From positions 73,718,001 to 73,782,000 of the forward strand of contig OX597819.1 of the NCBI GenBank assembly GCA_951406725.2: DNA of 64,000 nt, in the 5' to 3' direction. Shown here one piece after another: positions 21,377 to 53,310 of this stretch. Positions within the stretch are counted from its first letter, which is position 1. Each line of letters opens with the position of its first letter. The position numbers and the translations under genes were made by a program. The stretch comes from Octopus vulgaris. Its lineage: Eukaryota. The notes under the pieces were generated by a model. It was not told the DNA's origin. It did not search any database and saw only the letters and a list, made by a program, of their open reading frames with translations.

Positions 21377-22545
21377 TTGGGGTGTTCGGGAAGTAATTGC
21401 ATTTCTTCACCGCTATGAAATATGAATCAACCAGTCATGTCAGAGCCAAGGTCAAATGGGTGGGAACTGTCAAAAAATCATATAACATCTCTTCTATCCG
21501 GCAGTGTTCCATTCATAGCCACTTCAGTAATTAACCCCATGGAGGATAAGAACTTTATGAAACAACATACTTGACATTGGTTATTGTATGAGTTTTGAAA
21601 GAAAAGTACTACAGAAGCAGTGAAAAACATTTATGTATCTGGATGGAGACTGTGACATATCCAGCAAGCTCTGAAAGACAACCCACTCTGAATGAAGACC
21701 TTTTCAATGAGACTGTTGGATCAGATACTTGTCAAAGCACCAGAGATTTGGTGCAAAAGTTTAATATGTCATGTTCAACTATCCACAAATATCTCAAGCA
21801 AATTGGAAAAAACCTACAAAGAGGGAATTTGGGTTCCATATGAACTTATGTTTGAGAACTAAACACAATATTCCACCATCTGCAGCAGTCTTCTAACCAA
21901 GAATAACAACCTGTTAATTTCTGCAGTGCATTGTTGCAGGTGATGAAAAATGGATTTTACATCACAACAGAAAGCAGAAAAGACAATGGTTATCATGAGA
22001 GGCCAATGCCAACGCCATCCACACGAACCCATGCTCTGTGTTTGGTGGAACATGAAAGGTATTGTCCATTACAAGCTTCTAGAACATGGAAGGACCATCA
22101 ATGCCGATGTCTATTGCCAACAACTTGATTGTGTGAATGAAAAATTATGTCAAAAGCAGCCAGCTTTGGTAAACAGAAAACATGTTATTCTCCAGCATAA
22201 CAATGCATGGCCACTCTCTTCAAAACAAACCCAAGGAAAAATAAAATCATTAGGATGGGAAGTTCTTCCACATCCTCCATACTCATCTGACTTAGCACCT
22301 ATGGATTTCCATCTCTTCTTATCACTGGAACATTTTATAAAAGGCAAAACATTCAGAAATGGAGAGGAAGTTAAAAACAGTCTTTCAGATATTTTTCAGG
22401 AAAAGAAATAGGTGTCTTGGAAGATCATCATCATCACCACCGTGGCATAAAAATGTTATTTTCTTGTTGGACTGCAGTCATTGAAAATTATAGTGATTAC
22501 ATTCTTGATTAAAACTATTCAGATAAATGTAAACACCCCCTAATA
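21377..22545 (+). mobile_element. Decayed mariner (D,D34D) DNA transposon
   Basis: Frameshifted transposase motifs GDEKWI, LCVWWNMKG, ILQHNNA (D to N), HPPYSSDLAPMDFHLF; 5' TIR-like attggggtgtt...aagtaattgc and partial 3' TIR aacaccccctaat. Confidence 0.9.
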
Positions 22546-37485: not shown

Positions 37486-37683
37486 CAGTTCTATATTTAA
37501 GAGATGAGGAATTATGTACATTATTTACATTATTTAATAATAATAATAACATCGAAAAATACCTTAGGAATGAGAACCCAGGTTCGAAATTTCCTCAAGA
37601 CACCTGATGAAGGCTGGGGGGTATATCAGCCGAAATGTTGTGTTAACAAGATGAGGACAAATATCCATCAAATGTAAATAATG
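37486..37683 (+). mobile_element. Second copy of the hammerhead retroposon, 5'-truncated with inverted 3' end, nested in a piggyBac MITE
   Basis: Same body as 47504-47861; TSD TCGTCATTA / TCATCATTA; MITE sequence resumes after the insert. Confidence 0.8.
37599..37644 (+). ncRNA. Minimal type I hammerhead ribozyme motif
   Basis: Stem I GACAC/GTGTT; CTGATGA 37604-37610; stem II GGCTG/CAGCC; GAAA 37632-37635; very short stem III ATGT (ACGT after CpG decay); GUU triplet. Confidence 0.75.
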
Positions 37684-41682: not shown

Positions 41683-42391
41683 ATGGTGATGTATAAGAAT
41701 TTCGATTAAATCCTTAAAAATGTTTTAACCCGAAGGCCGCAGCCATGCTGGGGCACCAACAGCACACTTGATTTTCTCACCAATGGAAGAAGGCAAAATA
41801 TTGGGACCTGGTTGATGAGGTTCTTGTCAAAAAATGGCAGACAGCTACATTTGTTTGAAATTCAGGCAACTGAAGGAAGCCGCTAAGGAGATAAGCATGG
41901 CAGCTGAAACCAGTTCAAAGTAGCAGTGGTTAGCAAAAGATTGCAGGCAAATGTTTCTGATGGCATAAAAAATGCACTCCAACTTCACCAGCACATATTC
42001 AGGGAAAACATTTGTAGTGCACTAAAACATGTGAAAAAGTAAAATTGTTTCCTTGCTGGACAAAATACTTCATCGAAATTTTTTTTGTATTTACACTCTT
42101 GAGTTCAAATTCTGGGGAGGACAACTTTGCCTTTCATCCTTTGGTTGGGGGGGGGGTGCAATAAAATAAGTACCAGTTACATACTGGTGTTGATGTAATC
42201 GACTAACTGCCTCCCCCATAATTGCTGGTCTTGTGCTAAAATTTGAAACCAATAGGTAGCTACAAATTAGTACTTAGGACCTGGGATTATTGTTTGGGGA
42301 ATTTTTTTACCCCCACCCACCCATCGCTTCAAAAATGGCATCAGACATGGTAACAAAATGCTACATTATTCCATGAAGATATAATTATCTT

Positions 42392-42825
42392 TGGAAAATT
42401 ACTATTTGTAAATCTAACAAGAGATATTCAGCAACAGTACTTTGGAGTAAAGATTATGTACCAACATAACATGGCAGTCCTGGTTTAGGACTAATGTTGC
42501 TGTAATTTAGCCCCACGAGACATCATCTCCAGCTGAATACACGACACGATCTGTGTCCTTATATTTTCGAACAAGGGAATCTAGCACCCCCTCCCCCACT
42601 CAGCTCAAAACAATATCTGCGTATTGCGATTTCCGGGTTATTTCCCTTCATCAGCACAGATATTGTTTTGAGCTGAGTGAGCGTGCTAGATTCGTGTTCG
42701 AAAATATAAGGACACAGATCAGTTCATATTGCCAGCTGGAGACAATGTCTCCTGGGGCTAAATTACAGCAACATTCGTCCTAAACCAGGACTGCCATGTT
42801 ATGTTGGCAAATAATCTTTACTCCG
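42392..42825 (-). mobile_element. Foldback retroposon with hammerhead at hairpin apex
   Basis: Inverted arms 42444-42621 / 42655-42824, ~50-nt unpaired tail 42392-42443, 10-bp TSD TAATTATCTT (42382-42391, 42826-42835). Confidence 0.85.
42615..42661 (-). ncRNA. Type I hammerhead ribozyme motif
   Basis: Minus strand ATCTGTG-CTGATGA-A-GGG-AAATAA-CCC-G-GAAA-TCGCAA-TA-CGCAGAT; stem I continues as the foldback arms. Confidence 0.75.
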
Positions 42826-43576
42826 TAATTATCTTCGTTTTATTGCAAACCCACAACACACAAGCCTACAGTTACTAAGGGGAAACAACTCAATAGAAAA
42901 TCAGGTAGACGACATACTGAATAATGGACTTTCAGATTTGTCGGGGAAGAGTTTGTAGTAGTTGTTGGTGAGAGGAGGTAATTTTACAAAAATATTCATT
43001 TACATGCTTTGTTAAGTCAGAGTAAACAGCGGGGGAGGGGGGGGGCATTTTTAAAATGAAACTTTGCAGATACCTTTTCAATGGAGTAGATAATGATGTT
43101 CGTAAAATGTAGGAAAATAATGGCATGTATTCATTTCATTATTTTGTAGAAGCACCAAGAAATTTTATTAAAAAGTTGAATTACAATCAAAATACCTGAC
43201 ATCTGTGATGGCAAAGGTACACTTCCAATGTTGCCTGTCATCATAAAGTGGTAACACTCTAGTATAATAATAACAAAAGAATATATTCTCTTGAATTTCA
43301 ACTGACCCCCACCCCACCACCACCACAAAAAAAAAAGCCCAATGCAATAATTATTTCGTAACATTTTACATTATTAGATTAATTAATAAATTAACATTAC
43401 CCAAAAGAATTACATAACATTTCAAGTATTCTTGGTCAGAAAACCAACCTGTTCATTATCTTCTGCTCAGGTTCTTGGTTAAATTAAAAAATTTCTTTTT
43501 TTCCTTAAGAGCTGTTCATTTCATTGAGTTATTTGAACCTTTTCTGGCTGGTTTTTGCTCCTTTCTTTATTTTTTT

Positions 43577-43641
43577 TCAGAGGTTATTTGTTATGTTTTT
43601 ATAAACCAACTTGGCTGACACACAATCTTCAATGGCCATAC
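43577..43641 (-). CDS. CRYM: CRYM-like terminal coding exon (GMAIEDCVSAKLVYKNITNNL*)
   Basis: Acceptor tgtttgtag, phase 1; family motif GMAxEDxxxAKL; TGA at 43577-43579; minus-strand AATAAA at 43566-43571. Confidence 0.93.
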
Positions 43642-45213
43642 CTACAAACAGAAATAAAAGGTGAGAACAGGAGAGACAAAGACAGCTCTGTTTGGTTTGT
43701 TTTATCAACTATTCATGCTTTTAATAAAAATTTAATCTGATGTAATCCAGAGATGGATTCTGTGTCAGAGTGATGGTCATATAGCCATAAAGATTTTAGG
43801 GAAAAAAACCCCAAATAAACAAGTTAATGAATTTTATGTTGTATAAAATGGAAGAAACAGTAGAGAATTCAAAATATTGAACTTTCGTCTTTTGTTAAGA
43901 GACAAAGAAATGTTCCATGGTTTCTGCAATGGATGAATAAAGCTTAAAAAACGAAGACTTAAGCATCACTCAATAAGCAAACAGGACCTGGTAACCTGTA
44001 TCCCACACTAATTGTTTTAAGTGCCTGTTCTGAGCAGACATCAAGGGGCCCTCTTGACCATTGAAGTGGGGGGAGAAATACACCAGTATATGACTGGTAT
44101 TGAGTAGACGGGAGCAATTGGGAAATGATGAGTGTTGCTCAAGGATACAAAGTGGCACTTGGTCCACAGATTAAATGGCAGGATCAAACATGCGAAGAAG
44201 AGAATTCAAGTGGATTGTTATTTTGTAGAAAAAGAATTAGAAAGCATCACCTTGAGCAAGGGTCTTCTACTCTACTTTCATGCCAACCATAGCCTTCTGA
44301 GTGGATTTGCGAGATGGAAACTGAAAGAAGCCTATCATGTCTGTGTGTGTGTGTAAAGGGAAAATGTTGAAAATCCATCAAAATTTTCTCATATGTATGT
44401 GTGTGTAGGAAAAATACTGATCCAACCCATGCCAGCATGGAAAATGGACATTAAATGATGAGGATGACTGAGAAAATGCTGAAAATGCAATATTTTCTTA
44501 TATGTATGTATGGATTAGATGTGTGTTTGTGTAATTAAAACAAGTTTAACGTTTTAGCATAAATGGAGAAAAACTTTATTCTATGAGTCTTATACAAATG
44601 AAAAACATAAAGATACGTTTTCAGAGAATAAATGTTTTTGTATCATAGTTTGACTGAAATTATATTGGAATACGTATTCTTGGGTGAGTTTAGTAGAGAT
44701 AATTTATATAAACATATATAACAGAAGGATGCAAGGGAACAAGGAACAGTCAGAAGCAGTGGCGGCTTGTAGATGAAATTAGTTGGGGTGCTGCTTGAGA
44801 AAATTTTTAGCCCTTGTTCTAATAATTTTTATGTTCTCCTCAGCCTGTCCCTGGTTTTAGTGTATACATTTCTGAGTTTTGCAGTTAAAAGGAGTTTTTT
44901 GTAGTATAAGAAAAATGTCATATGATATGTGTGTGTGTTTTACATTTAGCTTCTCCAAAAATGTCTGTGTCTCTACCCCATCACTTGACAACCAGTGTTG
45001 GTATGTTTACATCCCGTAACTTAAGTGGTTTGGCAAAAGAAACCAATAGAAGTAGCAGGCTTAAGAAAAAAAATAAGTACTGGGGCTGATTCATTCCACT
45101 AAAAGTTCTTCAAGGTGGTGCCCCAGCATGGCCACAGTCAAATGACTGAGACAAGTAAAAGATATATAACAGAGAGAGAGAGAGGATTATTTGTGATAAA
45201 AGGAAATACATAC

Positions 45214-50119: not shown

Positions 50120-51260
50120 TAATAATAATAATTGTATATATAATCAGGTGTAGTTTCGACGGATTTCGGGAAGCATGAGGGCCTTAAAGGATGCAGTGTC
50201 ATTGCAGTCAACAACTGATGCAGGCAGTTTATTCCACGCTTCAGCAACCCTGAGCGTGAAAAAATGTTTCCGAAAGTCATGGGAGCTGTGCTGTTTTCTG
50301 ACTTTGTAGGCATGTCCACGTGTGTTAGACACATGGAGATCAAAAAGGTGTTCAGTGTTGTTGTTGGTGAGGTGGTTGATAACCTTGTGGGTGTTTACCA
50401 AGTCCGTCGCCAGACGCCGGAGCTTCAGTGAATCCATGCCCAGGGAAACAAGGCTCTCAGAATATGGTAGGTGTCTGATGGAGGGTATGCGTTTGGTTGC
50501 ACGTCTCTGGACAGATTCCAGGAGGTCAATGTTCTGAGCAAGATAGGGATTCCAAACTGATGATGCGAATTCCAAGTGTGGTCGTACCATAGCTGTATAC
50601 AGTTTTAAATAGATGGCTGGAGAGCGGCTAACAAAAATCTTGCTGAGTGATGCCAAGACACCCTCGGCCTTCTTGACAATTTTAGAGATATGCTTTGTCC
50701 AACGCAAATCACTGCTGACAGTGATGCCTAGGTCACGCTCGCAAGAGGATTTCTTGATATCAGTGTTGTGGAGGGAGTATGTGGATGCAGGGTTTTTCTC
50801 CCAAAATGCATGGTGGTAAACTTGTCCACAGCCAGTTTCAGTTGCCAGTCTGTGATCCATTGCTGCATTGTGTCTAGGTCTGATTGCAGGAAAGAGTTGT
50901 AGACATCAGGATCAGTCCTCTTGATTTCAAGGTACAGCTTGATGTCGTCTGCATATTTCAATACTGTGGCATTCTTTAAATTGGCATCTATGTCATTAAT
51001 GTATGCCACAAACAGGAGGGGACCAAGGCCAGATCCCTGTGGTACACCCGATGACATCTCATATGGTGTAGAGTGCTGTCCTAGAACTGTGACTACCTCC
51101 TTTCGGCTGAGGATGAAGGATTTCAACCAGTTAAAAAGGTCATCCCCCACACCCATTGCAGAGAGTTTCACCATAAGCCTTTTGTGTGGCACAGAGTTGA
51201 AAGCCTTAGCAAAGTCAAGGTAGACAACATCCACCCATGAGCCACTGATAAAGATCTTAT
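50120..51260 (-). mobile_element. 5'-truncated CR1-clade LINE, reverse transcriptase C-terminal half, one frameshift
   Basis: DVVYLDFAKAFNSVPH, SGVPQGSGLGPLLF, KYADDIKLY, then ERDLG, RPHLEFASSVWNP, LESVQRRATK, TRGH, FFTLRVAEAWNKLP. Confidence 0.95.
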
Positions 51261-51299
51261 TGAGTGATATTAAAACAGACACCTTTAGAAATGTTGTTT

Positions 51300-51950
51300 A
51301 TCCAATGCTGACAATGATGCTGAGGTCACATTCCCTAGTAGACTTCTTAACATTGGTGTTGTTGAAGGAGTAAGTTAATTCCAGATTTTTCCATCAAAAA
51401 TGTCTTTGGTCAGCTTTTGTTGCCAGATTGCAAGAAAGATCTAAAGCTAATTAGATTCATTCTTTTTATATCAAAGTATCACTTATATCAAAGTATCACT
51501 TAATGTCACCTGCATATTCAAGTTAACATCTATTTCATTAATATATGAAACACAACATGGGACCCAGAAGAGATCCCTGTAGGACACCAGATGTCATCAC
51601 ATAAGATGCAGAATGTTGTCCTAGTATTTTGACAACTGCTTTTCTACAGAGAATGAAAGACTTCAAACAGTTATAAAGATTAGTCTTCACATCTACAGAA
51701 TCTATGCTACACATCCATTGCAGAGAGCTTCAACATACGTTGTTCATGTGGTACAGAATTAAAAGCTTTGGTGAAGTTGAGATAGATAAAATCCACCCAT
51801 GAACTGCTGCCTGCAGTTTAGGTAATATCTTCAATAAATTTAATGAGTTGGCAATTATTGTAGGTGGAGTTGGGGATCAATCCAAATTGTGAGGATTGAA
51901 TAAAGTTATGAGAATTCCAGAATTTAAAGAGTCTCTTTTTGATGCAGTAA
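51300..51950 (-). mobile_element. Older degenerate CR1 RT fragment
   Basis: Minus strand reads DFIYLNFTKAFNSVPHE and SGVLQGSLLGP-like motifs; a matching degenerate C-terminal part (LEAVQRHATRQ) lies at ~49690-50060. Confidence 0.75.
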
Positions 51951-52320
51951 TATAATAATAATAATAAAACATTGTGTACAGTGCTCAGGTGCACTACAAC
52001 TCATCTAAAGTGTATGTATAGTACATAGGGTAATGTATAAGCGTCAGGAAAAGAACAGTACATGAGTCATGACATACACATATGTGTATGAGTATGGAAG
52101 GGGGACAATCAGGTGTAGTTTCGGTGGATTTTGGAAAGCATGAGGGCCTTAAAGGATGCAGTGTCATGGCAGTCAACAACTGACGCAGGCAGTTTGTTCC
52201 ATGCTTCAGCAACTCTGAGCGTGAAAAAATGTTTCCGAAAGTCAAGGGAGCTAAGCTGTTTTCTGACTTTGTAGGCATGTCCATGTGTGTTGGACACATG
52301 GAGATCAAAAAGGTGTACTC
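51950..52320 (-). mobile_element. 3' end of the young CR1 family
   Basis: Nearly identical to 50144-50350, plus 3'UTR and (TTA)n-type tail. Confidence 0.9.
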
Positions 52321-53310
52321 CATCAATCTGTGAGTTTGACTGCATTATAATTGGTGATGTGTGGTCACCTTCTTTGAACAACGCTGACTATTTTGTCACT
52401 GTTCTCAAGTAACGCAGTTATTATGGCTGAAGTGGAAACACAGTGAAACCGGGTGCAGTAGAAAGAGCCTGCCCTGCTTGAAAAGCAGACAAGTAACGTC
52501 ATGAAGACCAGGAAAGGTATAGTCGTGCATTTACAAAGACAGCATATTTCTGATGAAAGACACAATCTTTGTTTCAATTAATTTAGAAAATAATGAATAA
52601 CTTTGGGTGGAATTTAGAACAGAAGTTGACATGGAATTTTGATGGAAGATTATAATTTAGATAACCTTAAAATGGGAATTAGATGGATTGGTATCAAAAG
52701 GACACGTTGGATATCATATTCTTCAAACGATTGTTTGAAAAAGACGGAGTAATTGCAGTTTCAGCATAGATCAGGAATTATGGGAATGAGGTGTAGAGTG
52801 AGATAGAAAGAGATAGAAAGAGGGGGCTTGGGGGAGAGAGAGAGAGAGAGAGAGATGTACAGTGAGAAAGATGGTTGTTAGAGGAATGTAAGGGTGGCTA
52901 TGGTGAGTGAAGAACAAAGATTGGGGAGGTCATCAACATATGAGAGGATGTTGAGAATGATAGCAGGTAAGAGATGATGGGGTATGACAGTCCAAAAATG
53001 TCACTCAGAGGAGAGAAAGAGAAATGGAATGGGAAAGGATGATATTGAGAATGAGAAGGGATGGTTGAGAAAGAGAAGCAGTTTTAGTGAGAAGACATAA
53101 CTGGTAGCACAAGGAGGGGCGGGGGGGAACGGTATGGATTCTGTGCAGATTCTGTTCTTGTATGATTACAGCAGGTGATGAGTGTTAGGAAGATAAGAGT
53201 AGGGTGGGGTGGGGGAAGCTTTGATGGGGAACGTTTAGTGCAGGGCCGAGTGAGTGTATAAACACACACACACACACATTTTCCTTCTAAGCATCTCTAT
53301 TTATACGAAC

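What the first reader, a model, noticed from the sequence alone, without database searches (positions are those of the whole stretch)
42382..42835. Hammerhead core at the tip of a ~175-bp hairpin, in sense just downstream of the CRYM stop
Seen: the element looks like a foldback MITE, but its 33-nt loop (42622-42654) is a hammerhead core on the minus strand, so the inverted arms act as a giant stem I. Stem III ATCGCAAT is one CpG decay from the palindrome ATCGCGAT, and stem II has a non-canonical A.G base. The 10-bp TSD and one-sided tail point to retrotransposition rather than cut-and-paste. The core lies ~920 nt downstream of the CRYM stop on the CRYM sense strand. Inference: a non-autonomous, retrozyme-like PLE derivative that could cleave CRYM 3'UTR or readthrough RNA, or form a long dsRNA substrate.
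Basis: partly seen in the sequence, partly recalled or inferred. Interest (0 to 1): 0.78.

Follow-up and report, generated by a model that had tools for sequence, protein, structure and literature searches.

The report
Retrozyme inserted as two-armed hairpin
This hairpin is one old copy among thousands of a 353-base ribozyme-carrying mobile RNA whose insertions have two facing arms ending at two fixed points, likely because a Penelope-type enzyme copies the RNA from both sides of the cut; control of the neighbouring CRYM gene is unlikely.

Summary
In detail: ~175-bp hairpin, hammerhead core 42654-42622 (minus), 10-bp duplication, one-sided tail, 923 nt past the CRYM stop. It is neither a MITE nor a one-off. 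It is one of roughly 2,400-3,400 copies of a 353-nt, non-coding, circularly permuted unit with a type I hammerhead, i.e. a non-LTR retrozyme. Copies sit as two head-to-head arms whose outer ends fall on two fixed sites 56 nt apart, one each (27 of 29 in a less biased sample). The inner junction varies, duplications are 9-17 bp and AT-rich, and 16 of 27 insertions have arms that cannot be fold-back copies of each other. This is the Penelope-like (PLE) tail signature and favours two priming events, one per target strand, over self-priming. Arms read through the ribozyme cut site (35 versus 4 ending there). Here the junction happened to fall in stem I, so the 'giant stem I' is an accident. Spliced CRYM RNA contigs enter the hairpin, but an uncut copy-specific contig spans the cut site, the core is weak and copies decay neutrally. 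No autonomous partner was found.

The parts
42382..42391 (.). Target-site duplication, left copy (10 bp)
   Evidence: Sequence; family duplications 9-17 bp in 55 of 72 A+B insertions
42392..42443 (-). PLE-type tail: unit positions 173-228, between fixed end A and fixed end B; 52 nt in this copy, 56 in the family
   Evidence: Segment mapping; 624 exact 33-mer matches across site A into the tail
42392..42654 (-). Arm ending at site B, sense with CRYM: hammerhead core, body and tail (unit 321 through 353/1 to 228)
42444..42621 (-). 3' strand of the hairpin (unit 1-172 of the B arm)
42622..42654 (-). Type I hammerhead core: CUGAUGA, 3-bp stem II closed by A.G, GAAA, 2-bp stem III with decayed palindrome, AUA; predicted cut 42622/42621
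   Evidence: not matched by Rfam
42655..42824 (+). Inverted arm ending at site A (unit 1-172), antisense to CRYM; joins the B arm through a 6-nt overlap in stem I
42826..42835 (.). Target-site duplication, right copy
42839..42844 (-). AAUAAA just upstream of the insertion (two more at 43164-43169 and 43566-43571); use untested
43577..43642 (-). Last coding exon of CRYM with its stop codon (43579-43577); the 3' region runs towards the element

Best explanation
The hairpin is an old, neutrally decaying insertion of a 353-nt non-coding hammerhead repeat present in thousands of copies, and it was likely made by a Penelope-like RT-endonuclease acting in trans that primed reverse transcription twice, once from each strand of a staggered cut. 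SHOWN: the unit is circularly permuted and occurs in tandem up to about 3 units; insertions are head-to-head; one outer end lies at site A (unit 172), the other at site B (unit 228); the inner junction varies; duplications are 9-17 bp and AT-rich; arms cross the ribozyme cut site. INFERRED: an enzyme dimer cuts both strands about 10-14 bp apart; one active site starts cDNA at A, the other at B, on uncut multimeric or circular RNA, often on different RNA copies; both cDNAs grow inward, stop at variable points and are joined, often through short overlaps. In this copy they met in stem I, leaving the core as the loop. The ribozyme probably served the source RNA (monomer release and circularisation as a dimer). 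This copy is predicted to cleave poorly or not at all; its likely effect on CRYM is a 175-bp double-stranded stretch in longer 3' transcripts.
For: Copies: 3,310 and 3,450 first-look candidates; 624 and 852 exact 33-mers, about 2,400 tail passes after correcting for divergence. Unit 353 nt, 41% GC, circular fold z -7.5, 0 of 100 shuffles. Ends: of 127 distinct loci 74 have both ends at A or B: 72 A+B, 1 A+A, 1 B+B; in the 51 loci not chosen by likeness to this copy, 41 are head-to-head and 27 of 29 are A+B. Duplications in 55 of 72, 33 of them 12-14 bp, 76% AT against 62% in flanks; 0 of 255 random controls. Non-nested arms in 16 of 27. Arms often differ at old polymorphic sites (position 124: 10 discordant, 5 shared; position 330: 6 and 2). 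Shared derived variants: opposing arms 0.49% (null 0.20%), tandem passes in one arm 1.26% (null 0.17%). Junction overlap mean 1.65 nt against 0.81 for shuffled pairs, n=40. 35 segments cross the cut site, 4 end at it. Thousands of GIY-YIG candidates and intact 781-aa RT+GIY-YIG frames in the genome. PMC11167929: a PLE protein cuts and extends both strands, starts at two internal RNA sites that delimit the tail, prefers AT-rich DNA, is a predicted dimer, and does not need ribozyme cleavage in vitro.
Against: No autonomous PLE sharing sequence with the unit was found among 30 GIY-YIG loci and 6 extended regions, so the enzyme is inferred from the footprint alone. The tail is 56 nt; published tails are 30-40 nt. 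53 of 127 loci lack a clean A/B pair (one arm only, or an end elsewhere). Opposing arms do share more derived variants than chance, which fold-back or later gene conversion would also give. Deletions at palindrome centres after insertion could turn nested arms into non-nested ones. No empty site was seen. No long source array among the 40 best-scored loci. The less biased sample is the first 30+30 matches on one contig, and one anchor favours arms that pass site A.
Confidence: 0.78

Rival explanations
1. Same retrozyme family, but the inverted arm arises by self-priming: a single cDNA (or an antisense template) folds back at a hairpin such as stem I and copies itself, as proposed for PLE head-to-head repeats.
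For: PMC3846280 reads palindromes at PLE inverted junctions as self-priming (passages). In this copy the A arm lies wholly inside the B arm and the join is in stem I. Opposing arms share derived variants 2.5 times more than random pairs; 8 of 27 insertions have A nested in B.
Against: 16 of 27 insertions have arms that each hold 15 or more bases absent from the other, up to 241; frequent discordance at old polymorphic sites, including position 124 in this copy; fold-back gives no reason for the second arm to stop at A or B.
Confidence: 0.13
2. The copy has been recruited as a working ribozyme or regulatory hairpin that cuts or controls CRYM 3' transcripts.
For: Core is sense to CRYM; all invariant core bases are present; stem I is locked by the long hairpin; spliced CRYM contigs from three runs enter the element to 42813 or 42782. 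An axolotl hammerhead with a mismatch at the base of helix II still cut 22% in an hour as a monomer (PMC7229834 section 15).
Against: A 74-nt contig identical to this copy spans the cut site with 39 and 35 nt on either side. Active fold 6.3 kcal/mol above a fold that pairs core bases with stem III; palindrome duplex falls from -10.1 to -2.3 kcal/mol. This copy carries 20 differences from the family majority, like other copies. Family cores are not conserved beyond background (12 of 386 against 18 expected) and show no compensatory pattern. Three AAUAAA lie upstream.
Confidence: 0.07
3. A foldback MITE: a fixed hairpin moved by a DNA transposase, with a captured or chance hammerhead-like loop.
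For: Long inverted arms; the 30 best matches have nearly the same outer limits.
Against: Ends are asymmetric (tail on one side, either side relative to the core); interior differs in each copy; duplication length varies 9-17 bp; the unit also occurs in direct tandem.
Confidence: 0.02

Closest known systems
Non-LTR retrozymes of metazoans (mussel 350-390 bp, axolotl Rtz_331/Rtz_353, coral; PMC7229834; bioRxiv 10.64898/2026.07.22.740005)
   Same: Non-coding unit of about 350 nt, under 45% GC, type I hammerhead with 2-bp stem III and palindromic tetraloop, highly self-paired as a circle, short tandems, co-occurs with PLEs; a mismatch at the base of stem II recalls axolotl HHR_Amex2.
   Different: Described members are tandem arrays and monomers; 'inverted' and 'target site' do not occur in PMC7229834. 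Here most copies are dispersed two-arm inverted insertions with fixed A/B ends and duplications, the longest run seen is about 3 units, and circular RNA and cleavage are untested.
Endonuclease-bearing Penelope-like elements and their pLTR/tail structures (Adineta Pen2a, anole PAc, Naiad, Chlamys)
   Same: Head-to-head inverted truncated copy, tail on one end only, 8-10 bp duplications in Adineta, AT-rich targets, two internal start sites for reverse transcription, hammerhead upstream of those sites.
   Different: No RT or endonuclease frame; tail 56 nt against 30-40; no sequence link to any PLE found here; the whole element is the repeat unit.
Non-autonomous Chlamys PLEs such as MRC1 (PMC8557442, passages)
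   Same: Non-autonomous PLE dependants forming multi-copy head-to-tail insertions.
   Different: Those resemble their autonomous partners at the 3' end and lack canonical hammerheads; here there is a hammerhead and no partner was found.
L1 twin priming (recalled, not from a call)
   Same: Two primings from the two strands of a staggered cut give an inverted 5' part.
   Different: In L1 the two parts come from different, largely non-overlapping parts of one RNA and the second site varies; here both arms cover the same sequence and both start sites are fixed.
Foldback MITEs
   Same: Long inverted arms, short, non-coding, high copy.
   Different: No symmetric termini, no fixed duplication length, no fixed interior.

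Membership tests
Non-LTR retrozyme | Non-coding unit of about 170-400 nt, GC below 45% | tested here: met
   353 nt, 41% GC, no long frame
Non-LTR retrozyme | Type I hammerhead core with short palindromic stem III | tested here: met
   All invariant bases in 44 of 64 whole cores from 54 loci, core-anchored set left out; family palindrome in the majority form
Non-LTR retrozyme | Canonical G10.1-C11.1 pair closing stem II | tested here: not met
   Purine faces purine in 64 of 64 cores (A.G 37, A.A 26, G.A 1); no Rfam hammerhead match. A published member also has a mismatch there, so this is not read as exclusion
Non-LTR retrozyme | Direct tandem repeats of the unit | tested here: met
   27 arms with two passes; longest 1,087 nt, about 3 units; no long array among 40 scored
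Non-LTR retrozyme | Highly self-paired circle | tested here: met
   Predicted only: -118.7 kcal/mol, z -7.5
Non-LTR retrozyme | Self-cleavage and circular RNA in tissues | not testable with these tools
   Only assembled contigs were available
PLE-mobilised non-autonomous element | Head-to-head inverted arms with a tail at one end | tested here: met
   72 of 74 A+B; 41 of 51 head-to-head
PLE-mobilised non-autonomous element | Variable duplications at AT-rich targets | tested here: met
   9-17 bp in 55 of 72, 76% AT
PLE-mobilised non-autonomous element | Sequence shared with an autonomous PLE pLTR | tested here: inconclusive
   None in 30 of 148 listed GIY-YIG loci or 6 extended regions; 6,136 candidates exist
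Foldback MITE | Symmetric terminal inverted repeats and constant interior | tested here: not met
Foldback MITE | Fixed duplication length | tested here: not met
   9-17 bp

The most novel reading that the evidence does not exclude
This family is a natural library of about 3,000 insertions showing that an animal retrozyme is integrated by a PLE enzyme dimer that primes exactly once at each of two fixed RNA sites, on opposite target strands and mostly on two different uncut or circular RNA copies. That one rule would explain the PLE tail, the head-to-head inverted repeat and retrozyme spread together, replace the self-priming model, and make the element a genome-wide factory of long dsRNA hairpins.
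Probability: 0.55. Interest if true: 0.68.

Novelty: new variant of a known kind. Interest (0 to 1): 0.52.

Why it matters
How PLEs make their inverted repeats and tails, and how retrozymes move, are both called unresolved in the papers read. A 353-nt RNA with two mapped start sites is a minimal substrate, and its thousands of copies already separate two models: one A end plus one B end, and non-nested arms, favour double priming over fold-back. About 23 of 51 sampled copies hold 100 or more paired bases, so the family seeds on the order of a thousand potential dsRNA hairpins. The CRYM copy itself is probably a bystander.

Tried and rejected
Rfam: no hammerhead match for the window stretch or four tandem loci, only sub-threshold hairpin families. 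Autonomous partner: no similarity to 30 GIY-YIG loci or 6 extended regions; PLE fragments beside L118, L130/L177, L135 and L166 are neighbours, the element having its own duplication in the three where it can be read. Long source array: none among the 40 best-scored loci. Viral contigs: 0 matches to the core pattern. Earlier findings of the scan: nothing. Empty site: no joint skipping the insertion in three probable DNA runs; two of them hold a flank contig entering the element. No RNA holder is on record as RNA; RNA status is taken from spliced joints and missing intron cover. Contig depth falls from the coding part towards and past the element in run X2, but contig depth cannot rank parts, so it is not used as evidence. 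Two T>C differences at 42692 and 42707 in one X1 contig (A>G on the CRYM strand, both in the stem) could be editing or alleles; not separable. Convergent gene downstream: 60 of 127 frames scanned, only a transposase fragment. Pile-up of 5' ends at the ribozyme cut: not seen (4 against 35 crossing). Core covariation: none; the 330 G>A variant faces C in 17 cores and T in 1. The first duplicate filter ('all' set of 125) dropped some true loci; counts for all loci use the hand-checked set of 127. One search's same-orientation comparison was superseded.

Full report
Observation. The insert spans 42392-42825 between two copies of a 10-bp duplication. Its arms pair over about 175 bp (z -29.7). The loop on the minus strand holds a type I hammerhead core starting at 42654, with a 3-bp stem II under an A.G apposition, a 2-bp stem III and an AUA triplet, predicted cut 42622/42621. 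The upstream gene is a mu-crystallin (Pfam E 4.8e-13) on the minus strand, with its stop at 43579-43577. Rfam does not score the core.

The family. A search of the 2.8-Gb genome returned 3,310 first-look candidates, 40 scored. Exact 33-mers from the tail and the body occur 624 and 852 times, about 2,400 tail passes after allowing for 4% non-CpG divergence (CpG sites 24%). Loci anchored on the core and on the sequence upstream of it show that the tail continues into a linker, then into the native 5' strand of stem I and the core again. The unit is therefore a 353-nt circular permutation, 41% GC, folding as a circle far better than shuffles (z -7.5). Numbering from the first base after the cut: site A is 172, site B is 228, the core is 321-353. 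Direct tandem runs reach about 3 units; no long array appeared among the 40 best-scored loci. These are the features given for non-LTR retrozymes in PMC7229834 (passages and sections 14 and 15 read).

How copies sit in the genome. I segmented loci against both strands of the unit. Of 127 distinct loci, 74 have both outer ends at A or B: 72 are A+B, 1 A+A, 1 B+B; the other 53 have one arm only or an end elsewhere. That set includes 29 loci chosen for likeness to this copy, so I also used 51 loci anchored on the body or on site A (first matches on contig C1): 41 are head-to-head, and 27 of 29 with both ends at A or B are A+B. Duplications were found at 55 of 72 A+B loci, 9-17 bp, 33 of them 12-14 bp, 76% AT against 62% in flanks; a like search on 255 random pairs found none. 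The inner junction differs in each copy, with a modest excess of short overlaps (mean 1.65 against 0.81, n=40). The tail may be on the arm that carries the core or on the other. This rules out a fixed MITE master.

Two primings or fold-back. PMC3846280 (passages) describes head-to-head PLE repeats with an optional 31-bp tail and 8-10 bp duplications and reads them as self-priming; PMC8557442 (passages) calls the origin of these structures undefined. PMC11167929 (parts 1-2 of 4 read) shows a PLE protein cutting and extending both strands, starting at two internal RNA sites that delimit the tail, without need for ribozyme cleavage. The copies here bear on the choice. In 16 of 27 A+B insertions each arm holds at least 15 bases that the other lacks; 8 have A inside B, 2 B inside A, 1 equal (all loci: 32, 29, 10, 1 of 72). 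Arms often differ at old polymorphic sites. Against this, opposing arms share derived variants at 0.49% of 10,820 sites, above the 0.20% of shuffled pairs (105 loci), and later deletions at palindrome centres could mimic non-nesting. Successive passes within one arm share 1.26% of 4,747 sites (null 0.17%, 27 arms), so opposing arms come from one template less often than tandem passes do; even tandem passes disagree at some old sites, which suggests mixed templates or switching. In the 51-locus sample 35 segments cross the ribozyme cut site and 4 begin at it: templates were uncut multimers or religated circles. I infer an enzyme dimer priming once at A and once at B on opposite strands.

The enzyme. 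The genome has 6,136 GIY-YIG candidates, 148 listed, many in 781-codon frames; one such frame carries RT and GIY-YIG between 456-nt direct repeats. None of 30 loci fetched, nor 6 extended regions, resembles the unit. The partner is unidentified, and PLE mobilisation rests on the footprint.

This copy. The A arm (42655-42824) stops at unit position 1 and meets the B arm in stem I, which is why the core forms the loop. The exact join is unique as a 34-mer and occurs 3 times as a 21-mer; more loosely, 11 of 51 copies have 100 or more paired bases with an unpaired core. The active fold is 6.3 kcal/mol above the predicted ground state, which pairs core bases with stem III, and the decayed palindrome weakens dimer pairing from -10.1 to -2.3 kcal/mol. 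PMC4209133 (passages) states that such short stems III impede monomer cleavage and that G10.1-C11.1 is highly conserved; here purine faces purine in 64 of 64 cores, 23 of 64 keep core and stems, and there is no compensatory pattern. Core bases are not significantly more conserved than the rest (12 of 386 against 18 expected). An axolotl motif with a mismatch at that place did cut weakly, so low activity is not excluded.

Transcription. In 3 of 4 probable RNA runs a spliced CRYM contig continues into the element, to 42813 or 42782; assembly breaks at repeats, and an AAUAAA lies at 42844-42839, so the end is ambiguous. In run X2 a 74-nt contig identical to this copy spans the cut site, a second covers 42631-42762, and unique sequence beyond the element is covered. 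Strand and level cannot be read from contigs. Uncut RNA across the core therefore likely exists.

Novelty. Retrozymes, PLE tails and inverted pLTRs are known, and a 2026 preprint (10.64898/2026.07.22.740005, parts 1-3 of 5 read, supplements not seen) links animal retrozymes to PLEs by co-occurrence and pLTR likeness while leaving the mechanism open. Eight searches of the held library listed no paper on a retrozyme inserting as two-arm inverted copies, on a one-A-plus-one-B rule, or on this family; the library lacks most subscription papers and repeat databases were not searchable. I file it as a new variant of a known kind. The interest lies in the family's insertion rule, not in the CRYM copy. 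Interest 0.52.

Noticed in passing
window 37596-37650 (+), core at 37604-37635: A second, unrelated hammerhead-like motif (extra A before a 5-bp stem II, minimal stem III, short stem I); a relative lies beside L083. The window has 14 core-like patterns against 3.6 expected, so further hammerhead repeat families are likely; the stretch does not fold better than shuffles.
   Followed up: partly
L178 430-5672 (G000:C16): Young PLE with 456-nt direct repeats (99% identical), a 359-codon upstream frame and a 781-codon RT+GIY-YIG frame; a variant hammerhead-like core beginning UUGAUAA sits about 100 nt before the repeat's end, flanks are (TA)n. Many near-identical 781-codon copies exist.
   Followed up: partly
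window 42692 and 42707: A>G differences on the CRYM strand in one RNA contig, both in the hairpin stem: editing or alleles.
   Followed up: partly
repeat unit positions 324 onward; window 42559-42651 (-): The AUG inside the core opens a 28-30 codon frame, as the anole PLE frame starts at its hammerhead; possibly a relic of an ancestral PLE start.
   Followed up: no
window 50144-52387 (-): Broken non-LTR reverse transcriptase fragments in a CRYM intron (frames of 253 and 189 codons); family judged by eye only.
   Followed up: no
window 21947-22408 (+): Mariner-type transposase fragment, Pfam Transposase_1 E 9.9e-18.
   Followed up: no
G000 C1 105-112 Mb and contig ends: Copies of the family cluster near contig ends and in a few interior blocks; gene density or other cause not examined.
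   Followed up: no
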